Of a stretch of DNA of 64,000 nucleotides, positions 12,175-45,414 are shown in pieces. The notes under the pieces were generated by a model. The model did no database searches. It was not told the origin of the DNA and saw only the letters and a program-made list of their open reading frames with translations. The position numbers and the translations under genes are program-made. Each line of letters opens with the position of its first letter. The stretch's first letter is position 1. Source of the DNA: a virus; the IMG/VR virus record IMGVR_UViG_3300031800_000001, positions 1 through 64,000 of that record; one strand, 5' to 3'.

Positions 12175-12183
12175 CGAATATGC

Positions 12184-12212
12184 TTGCATGGAAGTTAGAA
12201 TTCCATTAAACT
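12184..12212 (+). promoter_or_regulatory. TAGAAT-class sigma70 promoter for rIIB
   Basis: TTGCAT-N6-TAGAAT-N5-TAAACT. Confidence 0.65.
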
Positions 12213-12250
12213 AGGGATAGTCAGTTAAACAAAGCTAACAGAAAGAAAAA

Positions 12251-13105
12251 ATGATACCCTATATACTCACAGACAACTCACTCACCGTAGTAATCGAAGG
12301 CAAGGCACACACGATGGCGAATACCCATCCAGCGTTCCTCCAAGCTCAAGAAGCATTGAAAGATGAAAATTGGGATAAGCTCAAGAATATGTTTGATGTA
12401 AGCAAGGCAGTCGGAGAATTTTTCGACAATGATGCTAACATCGAAGTCAAGGACGGAGCGGTTCACTACAATGGCGAAATTGTCCACAACCTTGTGGTTG
12501 ACAAGATTCTCGACTTCATGCGGAAGAATCTACCGTACCAACCTCTTGTTAAGTTCCTTGGCAAGTTGATGGAAAACCCCTCGCATCGCGCCGTGGACGA
12601 ACTCTACTCGTTTTTGGAGCATAAGAATATGCCCCTGACCCCCGAAGGCAATTTCCTCGCCTATAAGGGAGTGAACTCGGACTTCACCGACTTCTACTCC
12701 GGTAAGTTCTCCAATAAGGTTGGAGAGGTTCTTGAGATGCGTCGAAATGGCGTGTGTGATGACCTCAACAAAGGTTGTTCCTCTGGTTTCCACGCTGGAA
12801 GCTACGATTACGCCAAAGGCTATGCCTCTGGCGGGGGGCATCTGTTGGTGGTCGAGATTGACCCTTCTGACGTTGTGAGCGTTCCGCTTTGTAGCGATTG
12901 TCAGAAATTGCGTACAAGCAAGTATAAGGTCGTTGCGGTGTACGAAACCATTGAAGCTCCCGCCTTGGATGAGGCTCTTTACGAGTCCTACGATGATGAG
13001 GAAGCCGATGAGGTTGGGCGCGACGAGTACAACGAAGGTTGGTTCGCTGGCTACCAAAAAGCCAAACAGGACATAGTAGACAGTATGGACGACCCAAGTG
13101 TGTAG
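12251..13105 (+). CDS. rIIB: RIIB-like protein
   Basis: L..NPS.RAV.ELY.FL, GNFLAYKGV, M.RN.V.DD....CSSGFHAGS..YA, DP.DVVSVP. Confidence 0.9.
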   Translation: MIPYILTDNSLTVVIEGKAHTMANTHPAFLQAQEALKDENWDKLKNMFDVSKAVGEFFDNDANIEVKDGAVHYNGEIVHNLVVDKILDFMRKNLPYQPLVKFLGKLMENPSHRAVDELYSFLEHKNMPLTPEGNFLAYKGVNSDFTDFYSGKFSNKVGEVLEMRRNGVCDDLNKGCSSGFHAGSYDYAKGYASGGGHLLVVEIDPSDVVSVPLCSDCQKLRTSKYKVVAVYETIEAPALDEALYESYDDEEADEVGRDEYNEGWFAGYQKAKQDIVDSMDDPSV

Positions 13106-13107
13106 GT

Positions 13108-13138
13108 AAACCCCCCCGATTCATTTCGGGGGGTTTTT
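13108..13138 (+). terminator. intrinsic terminator
   Basis: AAACCCCCCCGA...TCGGGGGGTTTTT. Confidence 0.75.
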
Positions 13139-13159
13139 AGATTTAACTATTTATTGAAA

Positions 13160-13390
13160 ATGACTAACAAACAAGTAATGCAAAACATAGTCGAGCTTGC
13201 TGCAAGGCAGCGGGACGAAGGCGATAGTGGTCAGGAGTTTGTTGCTACCTCCATGTTCGCCATTGCAAGCGTGTGTGCCACAAGCGATTTCCCACAGGAG
13301 GAAGTCCAGAGCCTCGCGGCAAAAGCGATTGAACAGGGATACCAAAGGCCCGATGTGGGCGCGTGTGATGTCGATAAGGGTTTGGAATAA
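13160..13390 (+). CDS. hypothetical protein
   Basis: ORF between terminator and RNA motif. Confidence 0.5.
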   Translation: MTNKQVMQNIVELAARQRDEGDSGQEFVATSMFAIASVCATSDFPQEEVQSLAAKAIEQGYQRPDVGACDVDKGLE

Positions 13391-13397
13391 TGAATTT

Positions 13398-13464
13398 TTC
13401 GCGGAATAGAATCGTAAGAGAGCTACGGTCAAGGCAAATGTCTGCCTGTATTGAACACCGCGAA
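13398..13464 (+). ncRNA. unknown three-way-junction RNA motif, copy 2
   Basis: TTCGC-GGAATAGA-ATCGTA(AGAGAGC)TACGGT-CA-AGGCA/TGCCT-TTGAACACC-GCGAA. Confidence 0.75.
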
Positions 13465-13475
13465 TTTACTTTGGC

Positions 13476-13552
13476 GTATTTACGGAATAGAGCCAAGAGA
13501 GAGTCTTGGACAGCCTTTAGATGTGTTGTGGCGAGTTGAACACCGTGGATAC
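13476..13552 (+). ncRNA. unknown three-way-junction RNA motif, copy 3 (tandem with copy 2)
   Basis: GTATTTAC-GGAATAGA-CCAAG(AGAGAGT)CTTGG-CA-GCC/GGC-TTGAACACC-GTGGATAC. Confidence 0.75.
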
Positions 13553-14259
13553 CCCTTCTTTTACATATATCTTTGCGGCTCTTTCTATTCTCTTTTCATT
13601 TATGTTGTGTTTATTTGGTATAGAGAACAATGAATTTAGAAAAAGCCCCTTTTACTATGCTTTTATTAAGGTTACAGGGGGAGAGAGTATAAAGAATAGA
13701 GTGTTAAAGTGTTTTGAAAATGAGTTGAAATGGAGTGCCTCATATTTATATTTATTAAAATTTAATCAATTTAGCTTCCCATTTACAATCTATACAACAT
13801 ATAACACAATACAAAGAGATATACACAATGCAAAAAATTAAAATGATAGGAGAAATTACATGGACGATATTGGTTACATTATTATACTTATGCTTGGTTG
13901 CAGCTTTGGCTTTACTTTGTTTAATCTTTTCAAAGAATAACATTTATAGTAGAAAAAAAGTCCCAGCATTTTGAGCCATAAATAAGTGGCACGACGAGCA
14001 TAATTATATTAAAAGTCAAGAAAAAAGTCCCAATAATTTGAAATTAAAAATATATAAAAAAAGTCCCGATTTTTCAATGATGCAAATAAGCCACGCGACT
14101 CCGTTTTCCTATGATAAAAACCCATTTTTGAGTGATTTTTGTGCTTTTTTGTATAATAATAAAGATTTTATTCCTATTAGATGAATTTTCATTTATTAAA
14201 AATTAGAAAATGGCTTTTTTTTCGTTTTTATTGCTATAAAAATGTAATTATTATATGAT

Positions 14260-14451
14260 ATGAATACCAATATGGCCCAAAGATACGAGCAAGCATGGCA
14301 TAAAGTCTATTATGAGTCGCCGCGCTGGATGCAAGCAGCAGTTATTGACGATCCGACAGGTAGACTCGCCTCTGCCCTCGCGCAGGAGGCTGTGCTGGTT
14401 GCGGAGATAGACAACAAGCCCATAACGACAGGTATATTAAGCAATGATTGA
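14260..14451 (+). CDS. hypothetical protein
   Basis: ORF after AT-rich tract. Confidence 0.5.
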   Translation: MNTNMAQRYEQAWHKVYYESPRWMQAAVIDDPTGRLASALAQEAVLVAEIDNKPITTGILSND

Positions 14452-14605
14452 AAAAGATAGTGTTTATTGGTCTATACATAAAATTGTATTTGAGGAGATG
14501 TATGATGATTTAGATGATAGTATTAAATCTATTATACGAAACAAACCACAAAGCCGCGAGGGCGGGTTACTTAATGAAAAAATTGATTTAGAGGTGCGAA
14601 AGAGA

Positions 14606-14634
14606 TTGACTCAAGGTTAGAATTCCTGTACTAT
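14606..14634 (+). promoter_or_regulatory. TAGAAT-class promoter, probably leaderless transcript
   Basis: TTGACT-N6-TAGAAT-N5-TACTAT, ATG 5 nt later. Confidence 0.7.
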
Positions 14635-14639
14635 TAGGT

Positions 14640-14882
14640 ATGGCAAGAGGAAAAGTCAAAGGTGCAACAAGTTTCGTCCTAGTATCTCTGGACGACTTAA
14701 ATCATGTTCTGCGTCCAGCCGCTATGGTGATGTGCAGTCGCAAATTTGCTGACACGCTACATCTCAAAAGCAAGAGGGTTGAGGCGGGGTATGATACCTA
14801 CGCATTCGTCAACAACCAAGTAGGCGTTGTGAAGGACATGGAAATGAGTGCCATCCCAGAGGAAAAAGCCCTTGACTTTTAG
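14640..14882 (+). CDS. hypothetical protein
   Basis: ORF directly after promoter. Confidence 0.65.
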   Translation: MARGKVKGATSFVLVSLDDLNHVLRPAAMVMCSRKFADTLHLKSKRVEAGYDTYAFVNNQVGVVKDMEMSAIPEEKALDF

Positions 14883-14914
14883 TTAGAATCGGGCTAAAAT
14901 TACATATACTACAA

Positions 14915-15865
14915 ATGACTACTGATACAGAATACTTTCCTACGGTTGTGGGACAAGAACGGGCCAAGCGTAAGTTATCTTATTTTTTAGATAATTGGAA
15001 AAGCTCTGGCGTACTCCCAAACACAATGTTCGTCGCGCCTCGCGGGTGTGGCAAAACCATGCTGGCTACGCTTCTCGCGGCGACCATGAAAGAACACGCG
15101 CCGCGCAAGATAGGTCGTGTGGTGAACTGTGCGTCCATCAAGAACCTTAACCAGTTCATCAACGGGACGATTATCCCCTATATCCAGAACAAGGACTGTA
15201 CTCTCCTGTTGGACGAGGCATCCGAACTCCCCCGCGATGTGGAGATGGCACTACTGACCATCCTTAATCCCAATCCAGAGAACCGCAACACTTTTTCGTA
15301 TGAGGACTATACGATTGACTTTGATTTCACGCGCCAGACCTTTCTGCTCGCTACCACCGAAGCACACAAGGTTTTCCATGCTCTCATGGATAGGCTTGAC
15401 CGTGTGGATTTAGAGGAATACAAGAATCATCATCTTGGGGAGATTATTCGGCGCAATCTTGTTAATGCTGAATTTGACGCTGGCGTATTGGATGAAATTT
15501 CCACCGTGCTGCGTAGCAATGCGCGTCAAGCACAACGCATGGCAAACAACATTCGTAATCTTCTCACCAAAAAGAAATCCAAAAAATTCACAAGAAAGGA
15601 TTGGGAGCGGATGAAACACCACCTTGGCATCCGTCCTTTGGGCTTAAACGAAAACGAGATTCTGTGTCTCCGTGCCTTGTCAGAGAAGAAGGCGTCGAGC
15701 CTCACTTGCATCAGCGCGAAGTTGGGTATGTCAAAAGAGGTAATTCAACGCGACATTGAATTGTATCTCCAAAAAATGAATCTAATGGAAATCAGCACCG
15801 ATGGTCGTAGTTGTACTGCATTCGGACTGAAGTATTTAATGCGCCATGTTGAAGATTGCGAATGA
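14915..15865 (+). CDS. RuvB-like AAA+ ATPase (Holliday junction helicase-like)
   Basis: VGQE..K, Walker A APRGCGKT, Walker B LLLDEA, LATTE, DRL, C-terminal winged-helix-like region; no RuvA seen in window. Confidence 0.8.
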   Translation: MTTDTEYFPTVVGQERAKRKLSYFLDNWKSSGVLPNTMFVAPRGCGKTMLATLLAATMKEHAPRKIGRVVNCASIKNLNQFINGTIIPYIQNKDCTLLLDEASELPRDVEMALLTILNPNPENRNTFSYEDYTIDFDFTRQTFLLATTEAHKVFHALMDRLDRVDLEEYKNHHLGEIIRRNLVNAEFDAGVLDEISTVLRSNARQAQRMANNIRNLLTKKKSKKFTRKDWERMKHHLGIRPLGLNENEILCLRALSEKKASSLTCISAKLGMSKEVIQRDIELYLQKMNLMEISTDGRSCTAFGLKYLMRHVEDCE

Positions 15866-16142
15866 AAGTCTGGACGTAATTAAAGGTGATTGTCGCCTTG
15901 CGTCTGCGGCACAGGTTGCGGAAGGGAAATGGCTTGCCCACCCCATCAAAGGCAACCACATGATAATGTTTCTTTATACTAATGGTATATTATCTTTATC
16001 AATGGGGGAGTCAGAATATGAATGCGCAAATAGTTTTCAAATAATAGCTTTCGATGACCAACTTATATATTGCGTAAAAAAAATAACATTTAAGCAGATA
16101 TTAGATTTATTAAATTGGACTTGTGAAGATTATTGTGATTGA
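15846..16142 (+). CDS. hypothetical protein
   Basis: ORF overlapping the RuvB-like gene end. Confidence 0.45.
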   Translation: MLKIANESLDVIKGDCRLASAAQVAEGKWLAHPIKGNHMIMFLYTNGILSLSMGESEYECANSFQIIAFDDQLIYCVKKITFKQILDLLNWTCEDYCD

Positions 16143-16173
16143 CATGAAAATAGAATTAGTTTAGTATAAATGT

Positions 16174-16261
16174 AGTTAATGGTAGTTGGTGACTCCGTTC
16201 ATCTGTATGTCACCACTCCTCCTAGGGCGGCAGCCTTCCTCTTGGGGCTGTCGCTCTTTTT
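16174..16261 (+). ncRNA. candidate ~90-nt sRNA with anti-SD linker
   Basis: Promoter 16139-16167; hairpin TGGTGAC/GTCACCA; linker CTCCTCCT; terminator hairpin plus T-run. Confidence 0.5.
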
Positions 16262-16568
16262 CTTGCCCACTTTTATAGATTATTTCAAATAGACAAAAAT
16301 GTCGGATTATTTCAATTAGTGCAAATAGTAAAAGAAGTCCGAATATTCCAATGATGCAAATATACATATGATATCGTTTTATTTACATGAGAGGGAAAAT
16401 CCTGTCGATAAATAGTTGATAAATAAAGCTTGACTTTTCGCCAAAATCGGCGGGAACCCGATATTAGTAGGTGGACGATATACTTGCGGGTCCCCGATTT
16501 TTTGTCAAGCAAAAAGAACCCACCGACCCCGAAAAGGGCCGATGGGTCGCGGGTTTGCTCCCACCCCC

Positions 16569-17279
16569 CTAGTTAAGATTGCACAAGGCAGTCTGAACAG
16601 ATGCTTTCTTCGTTTTGCACAGACGAGGATGCTGGGCCTCGAATTGGATGCTGATGCGTTGCGTGGGTCGGACTACAACTCTCCTGCCGAGGTCGCCGTT
16701 CCAATCTTTTGGCTGTCCGCCGTACTTCTTGTTGACTCGACCCTTCAACCATATACCATGTTGCGCCACACCGTAGTATAATCTACTTGTGCCAGCAGCA
16801 GTTTTTTGAACTAACTCGATGCTTGCGATAGTAACTTCAATGGTTGTCTTGCGCGGGGCGTAGTTGGCGAACTCGTGGAACTCGACCTCTTTCCAAGTCG
16901 CGACTTCGGCGTTGATGATAAGCGTTGCCAGCGTTTCATTCGGCACGCTTTCATACCACTCGTAACCATTCTTTCCGTATCTGTCGGTGAAGTAACCGTT
17001 AAGACCATGACGGGTAAGGAAATTCTTTCCCATGCGTTCAATGTCAATAGCGGCGGTTTTCGGTGCGTTCCCATTCGTGGGAGTGCCATCGTACACAACG
17101 GCCATTTCGAGTTGGTATTGCGTGCTTAACTCTGCTCGTCTCCGCTCTATGTTATTTGTCCAGCCGAGCTTTGTAAACCGATGAGGGTTTTCCTTGCTCT
17201 GCATGACATAAAACACATTAAACGGTAGTGTGTGGTCTTTTCCTGACCCTTTGATAATGTATTGTATATGTTTTTTCAT
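16569..17279 (-). CDS. T5orf172 / GIY-YIG-superfamily domain protein
   Basis: FYVMQS...TKLGWTNNIERRRAEL...IER...YEWY pattern. Confidence 0.65.
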   Translation of the reverse strand: MKKHIQYIIKGSGKDHTLPFNVFYVMQSKENPHRFTKLGWTNNIERRRAELSTQYQLEMAVVYDGTPTNGNAPKTAAIDIERMGKNFLTRHGLNGYFTDRYGKNGYEWYESVPNETLATLIINAEVATWKEVEFHEFANYAPRKTTIEVTIASIELVQKTAAGTSRLYYGVAQHGIWLKGRVNKKYGGQPKDWNGDLGRRVVVRPTQRISIQFEAQHPRLCKTKKASVQTALCNLN

Positions 17280-17370
17280 GTCTTTAGTATATGTATCTTG
17301 TTTTAATAAATCCTTACCCTTCCAGAATCATATGGGTTCGTTCCCAAAACTGAAAGGGCAAGGGGGTTCT

Positions 17371-18282
17371 TTAGTTGTTCTCCACCTTTATCGGGAGGAG
17401 GAACGACTTCAGAGTGTTCTCGTCAAGACTCATCTTATTGAGCTTGCGTAGTACGTTGGTGTTCACCTTGTTCGCCAACTCGTAACGCTTCGGTTCAACA
17501 ACCCTAGTCAGGTGTTGCGTTGTCGCGTTGTAGAGGTTGTAAAGGTTGCGACCATTATCTTCACCGTAGCTTGGGTCATTCCAGATTGCTTCGATGCTGT
17601 CCTTCATGTTGCCAGAGGTGATGATTTTCTTCTTCTCAAGGTTGGCGAGAATCGTCGCGCCTTGGGATTGTTTGATTTCGGTTTCACCCAAACGGTCAAA
17701 CACTAGGGCTTGTTCGTCTGCCATGCCGAGGGCTTTTGTAATGCCTTCGCCAAGGAAACCGATGTCGATGCCAGACTGATGGCGGCGAGTCAATTCAAAC
17801 TCCTTCGCCAGCGCAACCATGCCATTGGTGCAAACCAACCGCAGGAATCCTAGTTGAACGCTCAAACGTAGAGAGCGGTCATAGGAGTTTTTTACAGTAA
17901 GACGCAAACCTAACTCATCACCGACACGCCTATCTTCGCGCCGTTTGAGTTGGTGGTTTTTATCTTTGAGGTCGTAGGTGACATAATTACGCTCACCGTT
18001 TCCGATAACGCGAACAGTCTTTTCCCACTTATCCAATCCCTTGTCCGACAAAATTCCTTCAATCTCGTCAATTACGTCAGGGGTTTGTACGATGCCGTAC
18101 CTTTCGCTGCAACTGCCGAGGGCAGTCTTTACGCCTTTACGGAAATTACCGTAAACTCCAGCGAATGTTGGGTCGTTTCCATCCTCGTTTAACGTGGCGA
18201 TTTGCTCGTCAGTTAAATCGTAGAGACGGCGGGTCGATACGCGATAGCTCGCGTCTGTGCTTTGTTTTATTACTTTTGGCAT
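17371..18282 (-). CDS. DUF932/DUF945-family protein
   Basis: NSYDRS...LRLVCTNG...RRH, NLYNLYNATT. Confidence 0.8.
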   Translation of the reverse strand: MPKVIKQSTDASYRVSTRRLYDLTDEQIATLNEDGNDPTFAGVYGNFRKGVKTALGSCSERYGIVQTPDVIDEIEGILSDKGLDKWEKTVRVIGNGERNYVTYDLKDKNHQLKRREDRRVGDELGLRLTVKNSYDRSLRLSVQLGFLRLVCTNGMVALAKEFELTRRHQSGIDIGFLGEGITKALGMADEQALVFDRLGETEIKQSQGATILANLEKKKIITSGNMKDSIEAIWNDPSYGEDNGRNLYNLYNATTQHLTRVVEPKRYELANKVNTNVLRKLNKMSLDENTLKSFLLPIKVENN

Positions 18283-18321
18283 TTGTTTGCTTTCTCTTGT
18301 TGTTTCAATCTCACTATTAAG

Positions 18322-18350
18322 ATTATCGCATTATTCTATTTTTCATGCAA
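18322..18350 (-). promoter_or_regulatory. TAGAAT-class promoter for DUF932 gene
   Basis: Minus strand TTGCAT-N6-TAGAAT-N5-GATAAT. Confidence 0.6.
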
Positions 18351-18511
18351 GCCTAAAATCGCTATAACTGAAACTTTCTTTTGATTGAGTTATTTGCACT
18401 ATCCCAATAATACCATGATTCTAAAAATCGGCCAGCTTTTTCTGTTGTGAGTAAATAAGGCTTGACATCGGGGGCGCGGGTCCCCTAATGTAATCGGGTC
18501 CCCGCCGCGGC

Positions 18512-18568
18512 TGTGAATAACCTGTGGATAAGTTTAGGGTTGACAAGGGGTCTTTTTTGTGTTATATT
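18512..18568 (+). promoter_or_regulatory. tandem DnaA boxes plus sigma70 promoter
   Basis: TGTGAATAA 18512, TGTGGATAA 18523, TTGACA(18540)-17-TATATT, ATG 18575. Confidence 0.75.
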
Positions 18569-18574
18569 ATAAGA

Positions 18575-18715
18575 ATGAAAGCGAGAAAGGCCAAGCCAAT
18601 AAAAGTCCGCGTAAGCCCCGAAGGGTTTATGGGTAGCGCGTCGCGTGAGCATCGCGTGAAAAGGGGCAAGGGTTCTTTTCGCCGCAACCCGAAACACAGG
18701 GGCAATTGTGAATAA
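18575..18715 (+). CDS. ArfA-like alternative ribosome-rescue peptide (46 aa)
   Basis: HRVKRGKGSFRRNPKH resembles the ArfA KGKGSYxRKxKH motif; own promoter. Confidence 0.6.
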   Translation: MKARKAKPIKVRVSPEGFMGSASREHRVKRGKGSFRRNPKHRGNCE

Positions 18716-18757
18716 GTTTTGCTCGCTATTCCCTCTCAACCTGCTATAATTATCGCC

Positions 18758-19258
18758 ATGAAACTGAACAACGTAGAACTAACTTACCAAGACACCGGAA
18801 CCAACCTTGCCGTTTGCATGATTGGAAACGATGCAGATATTGAACTGCAATTCAATTCATTCTGGAATCACGGCGCAACCAACGGAGAACTAAAGTGGAC
18901 AATGCCGTATCGAGCCTATTTTTGGACTGACGAAAAACGCTTTGTTAAAGCTCTCATCAATGGCGCATTGTTTTACATTCTTGAGAACTATCCCGAAAAG
19001 TTCAAAGGTAAAAAGGGCGGCGCGTTGACTCTTGCCCGTTACCTTGGCAAACGCCGTTTCCGTGAAATGCCACGCCAATCTCAATTAGTTTACACCCACC
19101 AAACTCTTGAGGAGTATTCCCTCGGAACCATCACCGCAGAATTTTCCGATAACTGCAACCTAAATTATCAGAGTGCGGTACGCAATCGCTCTTTTGATAT
19201 AATGAAAAAGACCTTGGACACACTCACGGACAAGGGCGCGGCCAAAAAAGCGTATTGA
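18758..19258 (+). CDS. hypothetical protein
   Basis: ORF 7 nt after TGCTATAAT. Confidence 0.7.
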   Translation: MKLNNVELTYQDTGTNLAVCMIGNDADIELQFNSFWNHGATNGELKWTMPYRAYFWTDEKRFVKALINGALFYILENYPEKFKGKKGGALTLARYLGKRRFREMPRQSQLVYTHQTLEEYSLGTITAEFSDNCNLNYQSAVRNRSFDIMKKTLDTLTDKGAAKKAY

Positions 19259-19289
19259 CATTAACCTAGAATCAGGAGATAATTAGATT

Positions 19290-20048
19290 ATGCAAATGAC
19301 ATTAAAGTTCGGGAATCCAAACGCCAAGCTCAAAGCCTTGGCAAAGCGTTTCAACATGGTGCTGAAAACCTTTTCGCTGCCTAGTGGCTGGACGTGTCCG
19401 GCGGCGAAGGAATGCCATTCACGCGCAGACCGTGAGACGGGAAAAATCGAGGATGGACAGCACACTCAATTCCGTTGCTTTCAAGCCAGCGCGGAAGCTC
19501 TTTATCCTTCCCTGCGGGCAATGGTTTGGCACAATCACGATTTGCTCATGGCAAAAGTTAACGATGGACATTTGGCGTTGGCCGATTTGATTCATGCCAG
19601 CCTCCCAAAGAAATTTGATATTTTGCGCGTCCACGTGGGCGGGGATTATTTCAATTTGAGTTACCTTGCCGCATGGTGTGAAGTGGCCAAGCGCAATCCT
19701 GAAAAGATGTTTTACTCCTACACTAAAAGCACCCACCTATGGGAATTGGCGGAGGCATCCAATGGCATACCGTCAAATCTGATTTTAACCGCATCGCGTG
19801 GTGGTTGGTTCGACAGCAAGATTGAAGAAAACGCATACAAGTGCGCCGAGGTTGTTTTTAGCGAAGAAGAAGCCGCGCAAAAAGGTTTAGAGATTGACCA
19901 CGACGATTCGCTTGCGGCGTTTGGCAAAAAGTCGTTTGCTCTCCTTCTGCATGGTACGCAACCGAAAGGTTCAAAAGCATCTAAAGCCTTGTCCAAGCTG
20001 CGTAAAGCTGGCAAGGGAGGATATAAAAAGGAGGTGGCGATGCTATAG
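19290..20048 (+). CDS. Gp88-like (gene product 88 family) protein
   Basis: N.KL, FSLPSG.TCP.A..C, CF, RVHVGGDYF, YSYTKS. Confidence 0.75.
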   Translation: MQMTLKFGNPNAKLKALAKRFNMVLKTFSLPSGWTCPAAKECHSRADRETGKIEDGQHTQFRCFQASAEALYPSLRAMVWHNHDLLMAKVNDGHLALADLIHASLPKKFDILRVHVGGDYFNLSYLAAWCEVAKRNPEKMFYSYTKSTHLWELAEASNGIPSNLILTASRGGWFDSKIEENAYKCAEVVFSEEEAAQKGLEIDHDDSLAAFGKKSFALLLHGTQPKGSKASKALSKLRKAGKGGYKKEVAML

Positions 20049-20139
20049 AAGAGTTTATAATTGTTGCAATGGTGTGTATGTTCGCCTTAGGCGGAAAAAT
20101 GTTCGAAGAATAAAATTAACCAAAAGAAAGAAAAATAAA

Positions 20140-20508
20140 ATGAAGCTAACAGCAAACAAGCTAAAAAACGGTGCTCTGTATTACAACACCAAATCACAAC
20201 GCGTGGAGCGCATGCTCGGCACGCTAAATACTAATCGTGTTTGGACTACCAGTCATGACGCTAGCCCAGAAGCAAACAAGTGCAACAACTTGCGTTTTGC
20301 AAACGGGCAAGAGGTGGACGGCTATCTTCAGGCTAGCCCGAAATGGAACGCAATGAAATCGGAAGAGGTCGAGAGACGGATTGCCGCCGAAGGTGGTGAA
20401 AAGAAGTGGCTCGAAAATGTTTTCGCAATTGCTGACAGGGAATTGCCGCCGTTGCCAACACCACGGCAGGATTCAATATCAAATCCGTTGGGCGCGGCGC
20501 AGCAATAG
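20140..20508 (+). CDS. hypothetical protein, related to 30313..30567
   Basis: ANKLKNGALYYN vs ANNLREGAIYIN. Confidence 0.65.
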   Translation: MKLTANKLKNGALYYNTKSQRVERMLGTLNTNRVWTTSHDASPEANKCNNLRFANGQEVDGYLQASPKWNAMKSEEVERRIAAEGGEKKWLENVFAIADRELPPLPTPRQDSISNPLGAAQQ

Positions 20509-20639
20509 AAGATCCAAATAGAAACCCCTAGGGCCCGGGAGGGCCTTAGGGGCGGGGGACAAATAAGGCTTGACATCCGCGGGGCGGGGCCCCGGCCTTG
20601 CCGTTTCGGGTTCCCGCTGGCGGAGGTGGATAAGTTTTT

Positions 20640-21400
20640 AATAAGAAAAGGGCGGATTGACGTGGTCAATGCACTTTAATGGACAACCCGACAGTTAAGC
20701 CAAGCCGTAGAATTCTCCAACCCTTTATGCCAACCCGATTTGGGTTAGCAAAAAAACTGAAATTAATGGGTAACAGGACTTCTTGATTACCTGCAACTAC
20801 TTTCGGAGCTAGATCAATGTTCATAGACCCTACAATACTTCGTACTCATCCACATCGCAAAGTCTCTCAACTCGACTCAGGCCCAAGAGATTGGTCGTCT
20901 CCCCCTTCTCGCTTCTGATGCCTTAAGGCTCTTGCAAACCTTTATTCGGCAATACCCGAGGAGCAACCGTCGCTACTCCAAATTGGTAACGGTGTAGGGA
21001 TTCGAACCCCACCAAACCAATATTCACCATCCACTTTCAATGCATCTCCAGCGGCGGCTTTCCTGATAAGGCTGCTTCACCCTGAGAGCTTAATAGCTCA
21101 AAGGTTAGAAGCACCAATTTCACCGTTAAATTTATAGATGTCCACCCGCCATGATGGATAAACCGTAAGTTGTCTTACCAACCCTGTCCCCAGCGGCCTA
21201 TTTGCATAACCGAAAGGGCGATGGAGGCGTTTCTCAGGGGCCATTTTCTGCGAACAGTTGGCCCCGACTCGGCATCTAATCGCTTGAGCCTGTAATCCAG
21301 CACTCAAGCGGTTGTTTCGTTAATCGCGCTGTTTTTCAAGCGCAGTTTTCGGAAACTAAAATTTTCTTTCAAAGAGCGGATTGAGCGTTTCCCAATCACT
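20640..21400 (-). ncRNA. candidate large structured non-coding RNA
   Basis: Consensus promoter 21407-21435, boxB/boxA-like leader, many hairpins, embedded tRNA-like domain, no credible ORF. Confidence 0.65.
20984..21127 (-). ncRNA. tRNA-like element (144 nt) with acceptor stem, T-arm and CCA but no canonical D/anticodon arms
   Basis: 5' AACGGTG pairs with 3' CACCGTT-A-CCA; T-arm TGGGG-TTCGAAT-CCCTA. Confidence 0.7.
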
Positions 21401-21406
21401 TTATCT

Positions 21407-21435
21407 ATTATAGACCCATTCTATGTTTGAGTCAA
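21407..21435 (-). promoter_or_regulatory. consensus sigma70 promoter (TAGAAT class)
   Basis: TTGACT-CAAACA-TAGAAT-GGGTC-TATAAT. Confidence 0.8.
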
Positions 21436-21716
21436 GATTTTTTTCAATTTCTTTTTGATGTAAGAGTAATCCTTGGCGCGGTTTACTATTACAGGAAAAT
21501 CGTCGTTTGCCTCACCCCAATACCAGTATTTTGCTGGTATGATTAGGGAGTAGTATTTGCTCTTGCCATTGTAATTGATATATGGCCCCTCTTTAGCTCT
21601 GTACATAACTGTATTCATCTGTGTCAATTATACGGTAATTCTAATTCACAGGCAAGCCCTTTCTTTGTGAATAAGTTTGTATTGCATGAAAGATAGAATG
21701 ATAGTATTCTTTAAAC

Positions 21717-21905
21717 ATGACAGCGAATGAAAAGCTAACGATTAAAGCCCAACTCTCAGAGTACCTTTTTGACAAGTCAATGCCCAACGGCCTCAAGGGC
21801 TGTAGGGTTTTTGTCATGGAAAACGACAACTTTGAAGGCATCTGGGAATTGAATAAATCTGAACTCTTGTCCGAACTGGCCGAGGCTACTGAAGGCTGTG
21901 AATAA
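21717..21905 (+). CDS. hypothetical protein ending in a DnaA box (TGT GAA TAA)
   Basis: Promoter 21682-21710, ATG 6 nt after -10. Confidence 0.65.
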   Translation: MTANEKLTIKAQLSEYLFDKSMPNGLKGCRVFVMENDNFEGIWELNKSELLSELAEATEGCE

Positions 21906-21955
21906 GTTTTTACGAATTAGCTCGCTATTACCTCTCAACCTGTTATACTATACCC

Positions 21956-22291
21956 ATGATTGAACGAGACATGAAACACAAATTCGAGAACTTGGATTTC
22001 CAAGACATTAGCAAGACCCACGGTGCTGACTCCATACAGGCTTGGGTGAAAATGGAGAACGGCTATGAGGCTTCCATCGTTAAACATGGCGGTTCGTATG
22101 GCAGCGAAAAAGGTCTGTATGAGATGGGCATTTTTGGCCCGAATGGCAGTATGTGCGACCCCCTTGGCTGGGATGATACTGTCTTGGGTTGGCTTACGCC
22201 TCAATTGGTGTCGCGCCATCTGCAGCTTCTCGCGCACAAGCGACGGCCTCCCTCCATGAGTGGGCAGGAAAATCACCCGCAAAGCACTTGA
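21956..22291 (+). CDS. phage hypothetical protein
   Basis: ENGYEASIV...SYG...GLYEM motif; extended -10 upstream. Confidence 0.7.
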   Translation: MIERDMKHKFENLDFQDISKTHGADSIQAWVKMENGYEASIVKHGGSYGSEKGLYEMGIFGPNGSMCDPLGWDDTVLGWLTPQLVSRHLQLLAHKRRPPSMSGQENHPQST

Positions 22292-22322
22292 CTGACAACT
22301 ATAATTATGTAATAATAATAAC

Positions 22323-22649
22323 ATGAAAGCAACTATCGAAATCAACCTAGATAATGACATCTTCCAGCTTGGAGGCGGTCTAGAACTTGCCCGCCTTCTT
22401 CGTAACTTGGCGGATGACGTAGAAAACAACAACGCTTGCAACCTTGGCTCGTATATCGCAGTAATAGATATAAACGGGAATAAGGTCGGAGAGTTTGAGG
22501 TCGTGGGCGAGCCTGACGACGAAACTAAATGGATTGAACCAAGCGAGGATGAAATTATCACTCAAGGCGATAAAAAATTAAAAGAGTATCTAGAACGACA
22601 AGAGTTTTCCAATGACACGGAAAGAAAGGAAACAAAGCAATGGTGGTAA
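22323..22649 (+). CDS. phage hypothetical protein
   Basis: I.LDND.F...ELARLLR.LA...DINGNKVG motif. Confidence 0.7.
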   Translation: MKATIEINLDNDIFQLGGGLELARLLRNLADDVENNNACNLGSYIAVIDINGNKVGEFEVVGEPDDETKWIEPSEDEIITQGDKKLKEYLERQEFSNDTERKETKQWW

Positions 22650-22749
22650 CATTTTTAATCTTACATATAACCGTAACCCTTCTTATCCCTGCTGCGCTGC
22701 TAGTGATGTGCGTGGAGGACATTCTGAACTTTTTAACAGGATACAAAAA

Positions 22750-22950
22750 ATGAGATACGGAATAATACAAAACGACAACCGGCAACAGACTCTTTTCTGG
22801 AGCGAGAAACTCAAGCAATGGATAGAGGTTGAGGGGCAATACTCGGCCATGAGGATTCTGGCAAAAGCGGTGCGCGGGCAAAAGTATACCCATAAGAGCG
22901 AGGAGATTCTTGAAGCAATTGTTGGCGAAATAAATAAGAAATACGCTTGA
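22750..22950 (+). CDS. hypothetical protein
   Basis: ORF ending at repeat module (CTTGAC). Confidence 0.5.
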   Translation: MRYGIIQNDNRQQTLFWSEKLKQWIEVEGQYSAMRILAKAVRGQKYTHKSEEILEAIVGEINKKYA

Positions 22951-23289
22951 CACAGGGGGCTGGGCGGGGTCCCGCCAAGTCAAGCTTTTTTTGTCAATCA
23001 TTTTTCGCGCTTTTTGATCGTCAAACTTTTTTGTCGATCACTCGTGATCGGCTAATTTGTTAGTCAAGCGTGAGTCAAGTTATCTGTCAATCAATTAGGC
23101 CCTTTAATCGCGTTTAATGAGGGTAATTGTTTTGAAGAATAACACTGTTTTTGTGGGGTATAGTGCCTGAAAATTTCTTGTTTACCCCCGCTTTCTCCGA
23201 TGTGAAATTCGTTGATTTTAAGAAATTGTGAACAGTGTGAGTAAGTTAGGTATTGACTTATAGGTATAATGGTGTTATATTATAGGTAG

Positions 23290-23571
23290 ATGAACGCAAT
23301 GGATAAATTCAAAGAGGAAATGGCGTTTTCGCTGTTTGGTCGTAGCCCATCGGTTTGCAAGGCCGGTGGTCAATGTGTGAAGTGCGGAGAGTTCGACCTT
23401 TCGTTTAGCGACGAACTCTCTCGCAAGGAGTTCGGCATCTCCGCTCTGTGCCAAACGTGCCAAGACGGAATCTTTGGCGTGGAGGAAGAACCCGAAGTTG
23501 GCCAAGGTTCTCACGCTATCCCCGGATTTTTCGTCCCACCCGCAGCATTAGACGGATTGGAGGGCGAATGA
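23290..23571 (+). CDS. small zinc-finger protein
   Basis: CVKC...S..EF.ISALCQTCQD; promoter TTGACT-17-TATATT upstream. Confidence 0.7.
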   Translation: MNAMDKFKEEMAFSLFGRSPSVCKAGGQCVKCGEFDLSFSDELSRKEFGISALCQTCQDGIFGVEEEPEVGQGSHAIPGFFVPPAALDGLEGE

Positions 23572-24020
23572 AAGGCTACGTCCAAGTATACCGCAACCTC
23601 AACAAGAAGTTGAGCAGTCAAGTCGGCAATGGAATCGACCCCAAGGTAGTTGGCGACCAACCCGTGTATAGTGTGCGCGGCAATGATGGGTTAGTAAAAA
23701 AACATCTCTGTCATTTTGTTATACATGACTGTACTTTTCGTGTGGGCAAAAAGGGCAATGAACGTGTGTGCTACGAGAAGCGCAAAAATGTTCACGCTTA
23801 TATTCAAGGGAGGGAGTGTTGGAACGAGGAAGAAAAACGGTGGGAGTACATTGGCCCAGATTGCAATTATGTTAATGACCCGAATACAGTCACCATTACC
23901 TACGACCCTTACAAGTACAAGACCTTTGTGCGCGTAGACACAGGCGAGCCAATACATAAAGCCAAGGTTGTCGTATTCGGTTGTGGCAAAATGGGCAGAG
24001 AGGTAAAAGCGATTTTATGA
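23568..24020 (+). CDS. phage hypothetical protein
   Basis: VYRNLN...YSV...RKNVHAY..G...YDPYK..TFV. Confidence 0.7.
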   Translation: MKGYVQVYRNLNKKLSSQVGNGIDPKVVGDQPVYSVRGNDGLVKKHLCHFVIHDCTFRVGKKGNERVCYEKRKNVHAYIQGRECWNEEEKRWEYIGPDCNYVNDPNTVTITYDPYKYKTFVRVDTGEPIHKAKVVVFGCGKMGREVKAIL

Positions 24021-24256
24021 AACACGAACCATCAATAAAAGATTTAATACTATTGAAAAAAATAGATATTATTAATACTAGAGAACAAATTCAAGAGGAT
24101 ATTGACACCTACCTAGGTGATAAAATCGACTATCCCGTGCAAGGGAAGGATATAGAAAATCTTTGTCAAATAGTAGTAGACAACTTTAATAAAAATTTAG
24201 GAGGAGAGTTTGATAGAAGGCGAGAGGCAGAGGAAAAAGGATTGTATGATGATTAA
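24017..24256 (+). CDS. hypothetical protein, paralog of 1718..1948
   Basis: REQIQEDI.TYL...LCQIVVDNF. Confidence 0.65.
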   Translation: MKHEPSIKDLILLKKIDIINTREQIQEDIDTYLGDKIDYPVQGKDIENLCQIVVDNFNKNLGGEFDRRREAEEKGLYDD

Positions 24257-24418
24257 ATAACTCCCAATTTTGTAATAGCTCCAAATAAATAACCCTTGCA
24301 AATAAGGCGAAAATCGGGGACCCGCAAGCGGGGTCCCCGCCGACTTATTCACAGTCAAGCTTTTTTTTCGTGAATAACTTTTCCTTGTAATTTTCAACCA
24401 ATCTGATATACTTTTCAA

Positions 24419-24661
24419 ATGATGAATGACCTACATGACATGATTCGGGTTTCCTGCGAGGAAGCCGTCACCGAGGACATGGGCCCTGCCACTTGGGCAA
24501 ATGAGCCCGAGCAGCCCCAGCCCGAGCCCTCCCACAGGGAGCAGCATGGGCGGTGCGAGGATGCGCCTTGCTGCGGGTGCTGTGGTGACGGCATGGAGGA
24601 TGGCTATGGCTCACCCGCTGATGATGCATGGCATGATGCCAATGAGTACCCAGACTGGTAG
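24419..24661 (+). CDS. acidic Cys-rich hypothetical protein
   Basis: RCEDAPCCGCC motif; ATG 6 nt after TATACT. Confidence 0.65.
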   Translation: MMNDLHDMIRVSCEEAVTEDMGPATWANEPEQPQPEPSHREQHGRCEDAPCCGCCGDGMEDGYGSPADDAWHDANEYPDW

Positions 24662-24790
24662 GCCTGTGGATAACTTTAGCTTGACGCCTCGGCGGGGGCC
24701 CCGAGTTATTCACAATGTCAAGCCCCTTTTGTGAATACTTTGTATAAGTTCACCCTTGACAAACAGGGTTTTTCGTGTTATATTATAACA

Positions 24791-24994
24791 ATGAAAGACG
24801 AACTATTCAAAGTAAAAATCGCCCTATGGCGCAAGGGCTTCAAGGGTTGCCCTTCTACCCAGCGTGAAACCCACATCAAGGCATTTGACTTGGCACACGC
24901 CAAGAGGATTAGTAACCGCCTATTCGGGACGCTAGGGGTAACAGTTGAACCCGTAGAAGGACGATTTGAAAGATTCAAAGAATTTAACAGGTAG
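24791..24994 (+). CDS. hypothetical protein
   Basis: Module promoter upstream; stop TAG lies in dyad repeat. Confidence 0.65.
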   Translation: MKDELFKVKIALWRKGFKGCPSTQRETHIKAFDLAHAKRISNRLFGTLGVTVEPVEGRFERFKEFNR

Positions 24995-25026
24995 GACGGC
25001 AGATGTCCCACCCTCTATGCTATACT
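24990..25026 (+). promoter_or_regulatory. dyad/extended -10 promoter repeat, copy 1
   Basis: GGTAGGAC-N7-GTCCCACC-N5-TGnTATACT. Confidence 0.8.
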
Positions 25027-25032
25027 CTACGC

Positions 25033-25230
25033 ATGAAAGAAATTAAGAATATGAAAAACGAAGCAATAAAAGTAAACGACAGAATCCAATGCAAGTCTCC
25101 GGGAAATCAAGGCGGCGTGATTGTCGGCATTGACACCGTGATGCACCTTGCCCTTGTCCGCTGGGATAACATCTTCACTAGTGAAATTATCGAGGCATGG
25201 GCAGGATTAGACGGTATTGAAAAAGTTTAA
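25033..25230 (+). CDS. hypothetical protein (SH3/KOW-like)
   Basis: IKVNDRIQ...GVIVG...VRWD. Confidence 0.6.
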   Translation: MKEIKNMKNEAIKVNDRIQCKSPGNQGGVIVGIDTVMHLALVRWDNIFTSEIIEAWAGLDGIEKV

Positions 25231-25231
25231 C

Positions 25232-25268
25232 GGTAGGACGGCAGATGTCCCACCCCCTGTGCTATACT
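25232..25268 (+). promoter_or_regulatory. dyad/extended -10 promoter repeat, copy 2
   Basis: Same consensus and spacing as copy 1. Confidence 0.8.
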
Positions 25269-25274
25269 AGACGC

Positions 25275-25454: not shown

Positions 25455-25464
25455 ATTAAGAATT

Positions 25465-30828: not shown

Positions 30829-31256
30829 GGGGGCGTACTGGTTTCGATTTGAAGCTTTACGCCAGATTGCAAGTAGAGGATGACGGTTGGCCTCTTAAAA
30901 AAACTGTCAAAAACATATATGCCAATGATGACATTGACATGGAGATGGCCCTTTCTGTAGACGAGGCTGACGAGATTCTCGCCAAGTTCGGATACGTTGA
31001 GGAGGAAGCCCTCTTGCTGGCAGTTTAAACCTGCCCCGTCCTACTCTGGATGCTCGTTAAAGAGCTAGGGCGTCGACAGCGAGCAAAAAACTGGACAGAT
31101 GAAGGGAGCCAGTATAAATAATCTCTTCATAAGTTCGCACAGGTCGGTTAGTCAAGTGACCCACCAACGCGAGTAAGAAATAATACTTGACTAAGCTTGT
31201 AGTATATCTGTCTGACGGTTTTGAAGACGTGGGTTCGACTCCCACCGCCTCCACCA
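30829..31256 (+). ncRNA. ssrA: tmRNA
   Basis: 5' GGGGGCG-TACTGGTTTCGA; 3' GTGGGTTCGACTCCCAC-CGCCTCC-ACCA with G3:U70; tag ORF 30921-31028 ANDD...LLLAV*. Confidence 0.95.
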
Positions 31257-44670: not shown

Positions 44671-45414
44671 ATGAGTGAAGAAAAAAGAACAAAAGAAGAA
44701 GTTAAGGCTGATCTTAAAGTCAAAGAGGCAGAAGTATTAAATCATCAGGCTGCAGTAAGAAAGCAGGATGCCGAAACAAGAAAGCTCCTTGCCGAAGCAG
44801 GCAAAGAAGAGATCGAGTATCAGAAAGCTTATATTGTAAGGCAAAAAGAACTGACATCCGACGAGGAGAATCATCTTTATAGATTTAATAAAGACGTTAA
44901 CTCCAACTCTGTGCAGATGTGCATGAGCAAGCTTACGCAATGGCACCGCCTAGATCCAAAATGCGATATGGAGGTTATCTTTTCGTCACCCGGAGGAAGT
45001 ATTATTGATGGTTTTGAATTATTTGATTTTCTTCAAGAAATGAGGGCCCAAGGACATAAAGTTATAACTGGCTCTTTGGGAATGGCTGCGTCTATGGCTG
45101 GGATTCTTTTGCAAGCAGGAACTCATAGATGGATAGGCCACCAAGCATGGATGATGATCCATAGAGCCGCATTTGGGGCAATTGGCAAAACATACGAAAT
45201 AGAAGACGAGGTCAAGCTGGTGAAAAGAATTGAAGAGAGATGCATTGATATCTTTGTCTCTCGTTCCAAACTAAGTAAATTGAAAATCAAAAGAAATTGG
45301 GATAGAAAAGATTGGTGGATAGACGCAGACGAATGCTTGGAGTGGGGATTGGTCGATGAAATTAAAGCAATGATGCCGGAGCACATGAGCGCTTCTAAGA
45401 AAAAGAAAAAGTGA
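44671..45414 (+). CDS. clpP: ClpP-family protease with N-terminal coiled coil
   Basis: SSPGGS...G, GMAASMA..LLQAG, MIH, RD.W..A.E...WGLVD. Confidence 0.9.
   Translation: MSEEKRTKEEVKADLKVKEAEVLNHQAAVRKQDAETRKLLAEAGKEEIEYQKAYIVRQKELTSDEENHLYRFNKDVNSNSVQMCMSKLTQWHRLDPKCDMEVIFSSPGGSIIDGFELFDFLQEMRAQGHKVITGSLGMAASMAGILLQAGTHRWIGHQAWMMIHRAAFGAIGKTYEIEDEVKLVKRIEERCIDIFVSRSKLSKLKIKRNWDRKDWWIDADECLEWGLVDEIKAMMPEHMSASKKKKK

What the first reader, a model, noticed from the sequence alone, without database searches (positions are those of the whole stretch)
18575..18715. ArfA-like peptide plus tmRNA plus ClpP: a phage ribosome-rescue kit
The 46-aa ORF ends in HRVKRGKGSFRRNPKHRGNCE, resembling the KGKGS.xR.xKH motif of ArfA. 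In E. coli, ArfA is made from a truncated non-stop mRNA and is repressed by tmRNA tagging. Here a stop codon follows the motif closely, so the peptide would escape that control. Together with the phage tmRNA and ClpP it could counter host defences that cut mRNA or tRNA and stall ribosomes.
Basis: partly seen in the sequence, partly recalled or inferred. Interest (0 to 1): 0.7.

Follow-up and report, generated by a model that had tools for sequence, protein, structure and literature searches.

The report
Phage mini-ArfA-like ribosome-rescue peptide
A real, conserved 46-residue early gene of an uncultivated marine phage carries the ribosome-docking tail of the bacterial rescue factor ArfA joined to a different, phage-specific front half, so it probably frees ribosomes stuck on broken messages; it is not part of a fixed kit with the phage tmRNA, and the supposed ClpP is a capsid-maturation protease.

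Summary
Window 18575-18715 (+) is a 46-aa ORF ending as quoted. It is a real gene: 38 protein clusters, 42 viral loci, pN 0.18 against pS 0.74.

Its C-terminal half (residues 23-46) is homologous to the mRNA-channel tail of ArfA: hhalign 95.7 %, E 1e-8. A family profile hits only ArfA chains in the PDB. All 39 members touch PF03889, though this one scores below Pfam's cut-off (15 against 25.5 bits).

The N-terminal half, with the conserved motif EGFMGSASREH, matches nothing, including ArfA's RF2-activating minidomain. The gene has a normal stop codon and no hairpin or terminator before it, so arfA's non-stop regulation is absent.

A consensus sigma-70 promoter ends 6 nt before the ATG, giving a leaderless mRNA. 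16 of 30 relatives keep this geometry.

The family is almost entirely phage-borne, mainly in one clade of about 160-180 kb marine phages.

The tmRNA at 30829-31256 is real, but it and the peptide gene are gained and lost independently. The "ClpP" at 44671-45414 is a head-maturation protease.

Best reading (about 0.6): a constitutively made, release-factor-dependent rescue factor that works like ArfA or ArfT. No experiment exists. This scan has noted other phage ArfA-like peptides on other DNA.

The parts
18512..18531 (+). Two DnaA-box-like nonamers (TGTGAATAA, TGTGGATAA) just upstream of the -35 element. Possible operator of the early promoter.
   Evidence: Read and located. The same TGTGNAWAA box lies within 75 nt upstream in 6 of 23 distinct relatives, against a chance rate of about 0.4 % per region.
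18540..18568 (+). Sigma-70-type promoter, TTGACA-17 nt-TATATT, with TG before the -10. The -10 ends 6 nt before the ATG, so the predicted start site is the A of the ATG (leaderless mRNA).
   Evidence: 11 of 12 matches, extended -10. The geometry is kept in 16 of 30 distinct relatives against 2.25 % of random positions. The start site has not been mapped.
18575..18715 (+). Mini-ArfA-like gene: 46 aa plus TAA. 15 Lys/Arg and 3 Glu give a net charge of about +12.
18602..18652 (+). Family-specific N-terminal module, residues 10-26 (K-x-R-V-x-x-E-G-F-M-G-S-A-S-R-E-H). Proposed release-factor or decoding-centre contact.
   Evidence: Invariant R12 G17 M19 A22 S23 H26. No alignment to the ArfA N-terminus and no PDB match. 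The role is inferred.
18641..18712 (+). ArfA-homologous tail, residues 23-46 (S-R-E-H-R-V-K-R-G-K-G-S-F-R-R-N-P-K-H-R-G...). Proposed to occupy the empty mRNA entry channel.
   Evidence: hhalign 95.7 %, E 1e-8. Pfam positions 26-43. The only PDB hits are ArfA chains. The structural role is taken from ArfA cryo-EM (PMC5378476).
18742..19258 (+). Next transcription unit: an extended -10 (TGcTATAAT, 18742-18750), then a leaderless-geometry ATG at 18758 and a 166-aa gene. This gene usually follows the peptide gene in relatives. Function unknown.
   Evidence: AF2 pLDDT 82. The best fold matches are RNA polymerase alpha-NTD / Rpb11-like chains at Z 5.3-6.5 only. No translation link was found.
30829..31256 (+). 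One-piece tmRNA in the same early region. A loosely associated accessory, not physically coupled to the peptide gene.
   Evidence: ARAGORN. Rfam RF00023 at 147.6 bits. The tag frame is conserved in relatives. Independent presence and absence.
44671..45414 (+). It is a head-maturation (prohead) protease and NOT part of a rescue system.
   Evidence: PF00574 at 99 bits. phrog_94 'head maturation protease' at E 2.1e-50, against 'ATP-dependent protease' PHROGs at 2.5e-11. It lies between the terminase (37318-39153) and the structural genes.

Best explanation
The gene encodes a phage-borne, shortened, N-terminally remodelled relative of the alternative ribosome-rescue factor ArfA.

Proposed sequence of events:
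1. Early in infection the host sigma-70 RNA polymerase fires the consensus promoter at 18540-18568. Transcription begins at or next to the A of the ATG, giving a leaderless mRNA. The promoter geometry is shown; the start site and timing are inferred.
2. The message has an ordinary stop codon. The 46-residue, roughly +12 peptide is therefore made constitutively and is not gated by tmRNA capacity as arfA is. The gene architecture is shown; the consequence is inferred.
3. The tail R30-G-K-G-S-F-R-R-x-x-K-H41 threads into the vacant mRNA entry channel of a ribosome stalled at the 3' end of a cut or truncated message, as the homologous ArfA tail does. This is inferred from homology.
4. The family-specific front half (K10-x-R12 ... 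G17-F-M-G-S-A-S-R-E-H26) sits in the A site and decoding centre. There it recruits or activates a class-I release factor (RF2 and/or RF1), which hydrolyses the peptidyl-tRNA. This is inference only.
5. The ribosome is recycled for phage translation. That would be useful when host mRNA is being degraded or when defence ribonucleases cut mRNA or tRNA.

The phage tmRNA offers a second, independently inherited rescue route that depends on host SmpB.
For: - It is a real protein gene under purifying selection.
- The tail is homologous to ArfA: hhalign 95.7 %, E 1e-8. The only PDB hits of the family profile are six ArfA sequences. All 39 members match PF03889 at E<=1, best 5.4e-6. Two members carry precomputed PF03889 hits and four are named ArfA by JGI. 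The Atlas's nearest clusters carry PF03889 in about 10 % of members.
- The last 16 residues nearly equal those of the ArfA of Vibrio sp. HN007.
- Ungapped, the peptide spans the equivalent of E. coli ArfA residues 5-50, which is the active truncated form (PMC5378476).
- There is precedent for a 40-aa factor that ends at a stop codon, is unregulated and has only a KGKGS-like tail: ArfT (PMC6299226).
- The promoter is strong and conserved.
- 7 of 42 peptide-bearing records also carry a tmRNA (G000; six more). That is 5 of the 10 that are at least 60 % complete, against about 2.3 % of isolate phage genomes (PMC9004378).
Against: - No experiment exists.
- The match to PF03889 is below Pfam's gathering score and covers only the basic tail.
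- ArfA's hydrophobic RF2-binding patch (L19, L24, F25) and its core (I11, A18) have no counterpart at the aligned positions (PMC5378476).
- The AF2 model is uninformative (pLDDT 60).
- The host is unknown, so the partner release factor cannot be named.
- A complete clade member (G247) has a tmRNA but no such gene, so the gene is dispensable.
- Basic G/K/R-rich tails can converge.
Confidence: 0.6

Rival explanations
1. The peptide binds the ribosome but does not rescue it. Its ArfA-type tail plugs empty mRNA channels to modulate translation. For example, it could compete with host SmpB-tmRNA or host ArfA so that phage products escape tagging. It could block initiation on host mRNAs, or bias ribosomes toward the phage's many leaderless mRNAs.
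For: - Only the channel-binding tail is shared with ArfA. The RF2-activating half is replaced.
- The phage uses leaderless geometry for about 10 early genes.
- The peptide is made without tmRNA gating.
Against: - The N-terminal half is as strongly conserved as the tail (six invariant residues). That points to a specific partner rather than a simple plug.
- Many carriers also encode a tmRNA, which argues against a role in blocking trans-translation.
- A channel plug would also hinder leaderless mRNAs, which occupy the same channel.
Confidence: 0.2
2. It is a generic small basic nucleic-acid-binding peptide (DNA or RNA chaperone, packaging or condensation aid). Its KGKGS...KH motif resembles ArfA by convergence.
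For: - Very basic composition.
- Sub-threshold Pfam score.
- Disordered AF2 model.
- Two members give weak Ribosomal_L16 hits.
Against: - The match covers 24 columns at 58 % identity, with the motif order K-K-G-K-G-S-[FY]-x-R-x-x-K-H kept exactly.
- ArfA is the only family hit in the PDB and the only one hit by all members in Pfam.
- The early-gene position fits a role in host takeover rather than packaging.
Confidence: 0.12
3. It is not a gene: a chance ORF lying over promoter or operator DNA of the early region.
For: Short ORF in a promoter-dense region. ORFs of similar size lie on the opposite strand.
Against: pN is below pS in all 253 pairs, and third positions vary most in this frame. The family is conserved across phages with different promoters.
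Confidence: 0.02

Closest known systems
ArfA (YhdL, Pfam PF03889), the RF2-dependent alternative ribosome-rescue factor of beta- and gammaproteobacteria (PDB 5MDV, 5H5U, 5U4I, 5MGP)
   Same: - Homologous C-terminal tail (K-K-G-K-G-S-[FY]-x-R-x-x-K-H) over 24 columns.
- Same overall length as the active truncated ArfA.
- Very basic and probably disordered off the ribosome.
   Different: - The N-terminal RF2-activating minidomain is replaced by an unrelated conserved module (EGFMGSASREH).
- No hydrophobic C-terminal extension, and no RNase III hairpin or terminator inside the frame.
- It ends at a normal stop codon.
- It is phage-borne rather than chromosomal.
- It scores below Pfam's cut-off.
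ArfT of Francisella tularensis (40 aa; PMC6299226)
   Same: - Tiny size.
- Only a KGKGS-like basic tail in common with ArfA.
- Not regulated through a truncated mRNA.
- Shows that a different front half can still activate release factors (RF1 or RF2).
   Different: No detectable sequence relationship was tested or found here. ArfT is chromosomal and restricted to Francisella.
Other phage-encoded ArfA-like genes: Pelagibacter phage HTVC027P gp30 (PMC12753301); Pseudoalteromonas phage J2-1 'alternative ribosome-rescue factor A'; Pseudomonas phage pf16
   Same: Small phage genes with an ArfA-type K-K-G-[KR]-G-S-F motif. gp30 is transcribed early and late in infection (PMC12753301).
   Different: - J2-1 and pf16 were found here only as tblastn matches to a canonical Vibrio ArfA query. 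Their own sequences were not examined.
- gp30 (58 aa) shares only KKGRGSFKR.
- None has the EGFMGSASREH module.
- tblastn with two family members found no relative in 50,697 phage records.
BrfA of Bacillus subtilis (PMC6881298)
   Same: A small RF2-dependent rescue factor that uses a basic tail in the mRNA channel.
   Different: BrfA is made from a non-stop mRNA. It was not hit by the family profile in the PDB search.

Membership tests
ArfA (PF03889) | Scores at or above Pfam's gathering threshold (25.5 bits) over the whole 44-position model | tested here: not met
   15 bits, E 0.017, positions 26-43 only. Vibrio ArfA scores 80.4 bits over positions 2-43 in the same test. The best family member reaches E 5.4e-6.
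ArfA (PF03889) | Basic C-terminal tail with the KGKGS motif and downstream R/K...KH, which occupies the mRNA channel | tested here: met
   G31-K-G-S34, R37, K40 and H41 are invariant. hhalign 95.7 %, E 1e-8. The only PDB hits are ArfA. Channel binding itself was not tested.
ArfA (PF03889) | Hydrophobic N-terminal minidomain (I11, A18, L19, L24, F25 in E. coli) that binds the RF2 switch loop and domain 2 (PMC5378476) | tested here: not met
   The profile-profile alignment stops at residue 23. The aligned positions hold P/K, G and S. The shortest members have only about 9 residues before F18-M19.
ArfA (PF03889) | Made from a truncated non-stop mRNA (hairpin, RNase III site or terminator inside the frame) and so repressed by tmRNA | tested here: not met
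   The stop codon comes 5 codons after KH. The mRNA fold z-score is -0.35. No scan hit lies between 18575 and 18758. No conserved hairpin precedes the stop in 22 relatives; instead the last codons overlap the next gene's -35.
ArfA (PF03889) | RF2-dependent peptidyl-tRNA hydrolysis on non-stop ribosomes | not testable with these tools
   Needs biochemistry or genetics.
ArfT-like (function-defined: tiny, unregulated RF1/RF2 adaptor) | About 40 aa, KGKGS-like tail, own stop codon, no truncation control | tested here: met
   37-47 aa family with the tail and a stop codon. Compared with the description in PMC6299226. Sequence kinship to ArfT was not tested.
   A Pfam scan at E<=10 of the ORF, and at E<=1 of all 39 members, lists PF03889 but not DUF7230.
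ClpP (PF00574) as a tmRNA-tag degrading protease | A housekeeping-type ClpP rather than a capsid protease | tested here: not met
   The best PHROG is head maturation protease at 2.1e-50, against ATP-dependent protease at 2.5e-11. It lies in the structural module.

The most novel reading that the evidence does not exclude
The EGFMGSASREH front half is a new release-factor-activating module. That would make this a fourth kind of RF-dependent rescue adaptor, after ArfA, ArfT and BrfA. It would have evolved in phages by keeping ArfA's channel-sensing tail and swapping the effector half. It could then work with the release factor (RF1 and/or RF2) of hosts that have no ArfA of their own. It would be made constitutively from a leaderless early mRNA to recycle ribosomes during host mRNA destruction or ribonuclease-based defence.
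Probability: 0.3. Interest if true: 0.7.

Novelty: new variant of a known kind. Interest (0 to 1): 0.5.

Why it matters
Ribosome rescue is essential in bacteria, and its back-up factors (ArfA, ArfB, ArfT, BrfA) are few and lineage-restricted. A phage family that keeps ArfA's stalled-ribosome sensor but replaces the release-factor-activating half offers three things.

- It is a natural experiment on how release factors can be switched on without a stop codon.
- It suggests that large marine phages invest in recycling ribosomes during takeover or under ribonuclease-type defences.
- It gives a 46-residue peptide that can be synthesised and tested directly.

The finding also shows that arfA's tmRNA-gated regulation is not carried over into this phage version.

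Tried and rejected
- NCBIfam: no hit.
- phrog_37108: a weak hit to the tail only, function unknown.
- megablast and tblastn against 50,697 phage records: no relative of the region or of the peptide family.
- PDB search with the N-terminal 23 residues: nothing.
- AF2 of the peptide: pLDDT 60, uninformative.
- RNA fold of the message: no structure.
- Search for a hairpin or terminator before the stop in relatives: none conserved.
- SmpB, RF-1 domain, peptidyl-tRNA hydrolase and peptide deformylase in the 116-kb record (71 % complete): none found.
- The conserved downstream 166-aa gene as a functional partner: Pfam and PHROG give nothing and the Atlas is uninformative. Foldseek gives no match at E<=0.001. 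VIA-align gives only RNA polymerase alpha-NTD / Rpb11-like chains at Z 5.3-6.5, below the level that means more than a common arrangement. Rejected as evidence for a translation link.
- Long proteins containing the motif (P0063, P0072, P0068): no informative fused domain. P0164 is a glycosyltransferase clustered by accident.
- A sample of 201 genomes of the Vibrio's class for canonical ArfA: only 3 hits, too few to use. I used the search for homologous proteins instead.
- The two bacterial MAG hits: one (L004) is syntenic with the phage clade, so it is a phage contig binned into a MAG. The other (L003) is an 11.6-kb contig of unknown nature.
- Host identity could not be determined.

Full report
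**1. The observation**

Window 18575-18715 (+) is an ATG-started ORF of 46 codons plus TAA. The window is the first 64 kb of a 116,086-bp IMG/VR virus record that CheckV rates 71 % complete. The region has no close relative among 50,697 deposited phage genomes. The large terminase is only about 24 % identical to that of large Bacillus siphophages.

**2. It is a real gene**

- The 5.8-billion-protein collection holds 38 clusters of 37-76 aa at E 2.5e-18 to 4e-6.
- An exhaustive HMMER pass over 1.84 billion representatives finds 50.
- Thirteen residues are invariant: R12 G17 M19 A22 S23 H26 G31 K32 G33 S34 R37 K40 H41.
- In a 32-codon core of 23 distinct gene copies, mean pS is 0.74 and mean pN 0.18. 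pN is below pS in all 253 pairs, and the third codon position is the most variable.
- Longer ORF calls in the databases are upstream over-extensions. Their extra residues translate the promoter (L-D-K = TTGACA; W-Y-I-I = TGGTATATTAT).

**3. What it resembles**

Pfam gives a single, sub-threshold hit to ArfA (PF03889): E 0.017 and 15 bits against a 25.5-bit cut-off. It is confined to profile positions 26-43 of 44. Three further tests show this is homology of the tail and not noise.

- A profile of the family searched against all PDB sequences returns only the six distinct ArfA sequences and nothing else, at E 0.005-0.09.
- All 39 members match PF03889 at E<=1, the best at 5.4e-6.
- hhalign of a clean family alignment (A2) against 20 canonical ArfA proteins (A3) gives 95.7 % probability and E 1e-8, with 58 % identity over 24 columns. 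Residues 23-46 here align to 40-63 of the template.

The last 16 residues are nearly those of the chromosomal ArfA of Vibrio sp. HN007, which scores 80.4 bits over the full Pfam model. JGI's pipeline already names four members ArfA.

The N-terminal half (K-A-R-V-x-x-E-G-F-M-G-S-A-S-R-E-H) does not align with ArfA at all. It also hits no solved chain.

In ArfA the N-terminal half folds into the minidomain whose hydrophobic patch (L19, L24, F25) binds RF2 Trp319, Val198 and Phe217. Its core (I11, A18) is needed for activation. His21-Glu30 lies in the A site, and the C-terminus fills the mRNA tunnel (PMC5378476). Ungapped, the phage peptide spans the equivalent of E. coli residues 5-50, which is the active truncated ArfA. 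The patch positions, however, hold P/K, G and S. Only part of the A-site stretch (R-E-H-R-V-K-K) is alignable.

**4. Gene architecture**

A near-consensus sigma-70 promoter (TTGACA, 17 nt, TATATT, TG before the -10; 11 of 12 matches) ends at 18568. That is six bases before the ATG, so the canonical +1 is the A of the start codon. There is no Shine-Dalgarno sequence.

- The same geometry appears in 16 of 30 distinct relatives under strict criteria, against 2.25 % of random positions.
- In two of these (L012, L023) the promoter is sigma-54-like (TGGCA[CT]G-N4-CTGCT) and again ends at the right distance for a leaderless start. A third locus, L036, shows the same element by eye.
- Several more relatives have weaker hexamers in the same register.
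- This is a trait of the phage and not of this gene alone. About ten other early genes between 11 and 31 kb show the same geometry, as does the next gene (TGcTATAAT at 18742-18750, ATG at 18758).

The message has no unusual structure (z -0.35). The scan gives no terminator-like site between 18575 and 18758. In 22 relatives no conserved hairpin precedes the stop codon. Instead the variable last codons (P-L-D-R, S-I-D-T-N, K-L-D) overlap the TTGAC(A) -35 element of the next gene's promoter.

The hallmark of arfA is therefore absent. That hallmark is a frame interrupted by an RNase III site or terminator, so that the factor is made only when tmRNA is saturated. Several other phage ArfA-like genes noted by this scan do have it. 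Here the peptide should be made whenever the promoter fires, as ArfT is (PMC6299226).

**5. Distribution**

The family is essentially phage-borne.

- A pattern scan of one genome for each of 185,579 prokaryote species found three relatives. One is the canonical Vibrio ArfA. One is a MAG contig (L004) that is syntenic with the phage and therefore a mis-binned phage contig. One is an 11.6-kb MAG contig of unknown nature.
- IMG/VR gave 42 loci.
- Sixteen of 22 carrier records tested have a large terminase 65-74 % identical to the window's.
- The neighbourhood RuvB-like ATPase / DUF932 / peptide / 166-aa gene / GP88-family gene is conserved.
- The terminase clade has at least 387 contigs, many from Tara and other marine samples.
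- The gene also occurs in unrelated smaller records, for example a 41.8-kb record rated 87 % complete.
- It is absent from one complete clade genome, G247 (158 kb, terminal repeats).
- Variants exist. An [FW]-N-T-G-[ST]-R-T-H-K front half is seen in L041 and L141. A more canonical-looking I-R-K-N-P-I-A-A-S-L front half is seen in about 176-kb phages (L042-L047).

The literature and GenBank hold a few phage genes called ArfA. HTVC027P gp30 is expressed early and late (PMC12753301), but its sequence shares only KKGRGSFKR with the peptide here. Pseudoalteromonas phage J2-1 and Pseudomonas phage pf16 matched a canonical Vibrio ArfA query in tblastn; their own sequences were not examined. I found no functional study.

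**6. The 'kit'**

*tmRNA.* The tmRNA at 30829-31256 is genuine (ARAGORN; Rfam 147.6 bits over the full model). Its odd tag frame, E-A-D-[EA]-I-L-A-K-F-G-[YW]...[LV]-A-A, is conserved in relatives.

Of 42 peptide-bearing records (the window's own plus the 41 searched), seven carry a tmRNA: G000 and six relatives. That is 5 of the 10 that are at least 60 % complete, against about 2.3 % of isolate phages (PMC9004378). These are relatives, however, not independent events, and the two genes vary independently:

| Record | Completeness | Peptide gene | tmRNA |
|---|---|---|---|
| G001 | 96 % | yes | yes |
| G010 | 100 % | yes | yes |
| G033 | 91 % | yes | yes |
| G018 | 79 % | yes | no |
| G032 | 83 % | yes | no |
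| G247 | 100 % | no | yes |

 The spacing between the two genes ranges from 11 to 78 kb.

No SmpB, RF-1-domain protein, peptidyl-tRNA hydrolase or deformylase was found in the record. Both routes would therefore rely on host partners.

*'ClpP'.* The gene at 44671-45414 has the ClpP fold, but its best match is phrog_94, head maturation protease, at 2.1e-50. It sits in the structural module downstream of the terminase. It does not belong to a rescue system.

**7. Mechanism and odds**

| Claim | My estimate |
|---|---|
| It is a real gene | about 0.98 |
| The tail is homologous to ArfA's and binds the empty mRNA channel | about 0.8 |
| It acts as a release-factor-dependent rescue factor | about 0.6 |

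The front half is conserved as strongly as the tail. That argues for a specific macromolecular partner, and a class-I release factor is the obvious candidate. ArfT shows that a front half unlike ArfA's can do this job.

The main rival (0.2) is a ribosome-channel binder with another effect on translation. Convergence of a basic nucleic-acid-binding peptide comes next (0.12). The host is not identified. Consensus sigma-70 promoters and sigma-54-type promoters in clade members suggest a bacterium with both sigma factors, but this is inference.

**8. Verdict**

The peptide is ArfA-like in its sensor tail and free of non-stop control. It is not canonical ArfA, it is not coupled to the tmRNA, and the ClpP link is wrong.
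- I class it as a new variant of a known kind and set interest at 0.5.

This scan has already noted other, differently built phage ArfA-like peptides on other genomes. This family differs from them in its front half and in having an ordinary stop codon.

Noticed in passing
window 11473-30050 (e.g. promoters at 11473, 14606, 18540, 18742, 19255, 22288, 23253, 24756, 28910, 30015): About ten early genes have a consensus sigma-70 promoter whose -10 ends 5-8 nt before the start codon, with no Shine-Dalgarno sequence. This phage, and its clade, appear to express much of the early region as leaderless mRNAs.
   Followed up: partly
L012, L023, L036 (about 30 nt upstream of the peptide gene): In three clade members the peptide gene is preceded by a sigma-54-type element (TGGCA[CT]G-N4-CTGCT) instead of a sigma-70 promoter. 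It again sits at the distance that puts +1 at or 1 nt before the ATG.
   Followed up: partly
window 18512-18531; relatives L013, L014, L024, L028, L040: DnaA-box-like nonamers (TGTGNAWAA) sit just upstream of the -35 of the peptide gene's promoter, here and in 5 of 22 other distinct relatives. This looks like a conserved operator of the early promoters.
   Followed up: partly
window 30829-31256; L056, L057, L058: The phage tmRNA encodes an unusually long tag with a conserved core E-A-D-[EA]-I-L-A-K-F-G-[YW]-x-E-E, ending LAA, VAA, VTA or LAV. No SmpB gene is in the record.
   Followed up: partly
window 18758-19258: The 166-aa gene that usually follows the peptide gene gives a confident AF2 model (pLDDT 82; residues 1-110 above 90). 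Its top 16 VIA-align matches are all RNA polymerase alpha-NTD / Rpb3 / Rpb11 / subunit L chains, but only at Z 4.7-6.5. It may be an RNA-polymerase-related early protein.
   Followed up: partly
window 42741-43925: A tubulin/FtsZ-family GTPase gene (PF00091, E 4e-12) lies between the terminase region and the prohead protease of this roughly 160-kb siphophage-like genome.
   Followed up: no
window 33895-34596 and 32281-33045: A phage sigma-factor-like gene (Sigma70_r2) and a PhoH-like ATPase lie between the early region and the packaging genes. The sigma factor may drive middle or late transcription.
   Followed up: no
L019:454-864: In one relative the peptide frame has no stop after KH and runs on for 136 codons into the next gene. 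This is either an assembly error or a natural stop-less variant.
   Followed up: no
L042-L047 (6001-6072) and L041, L141: Other phages carry differently built ArfA-tail peptides. One is a 43-aa form with a canonical-looking I-R-K-N-P-I-A-A-S-L front half that ends in AA or VAA. The other is a form of 36-41 aa with [FW]-N-T-G-[ST]-R-T-H-K.
   Followed up: partly
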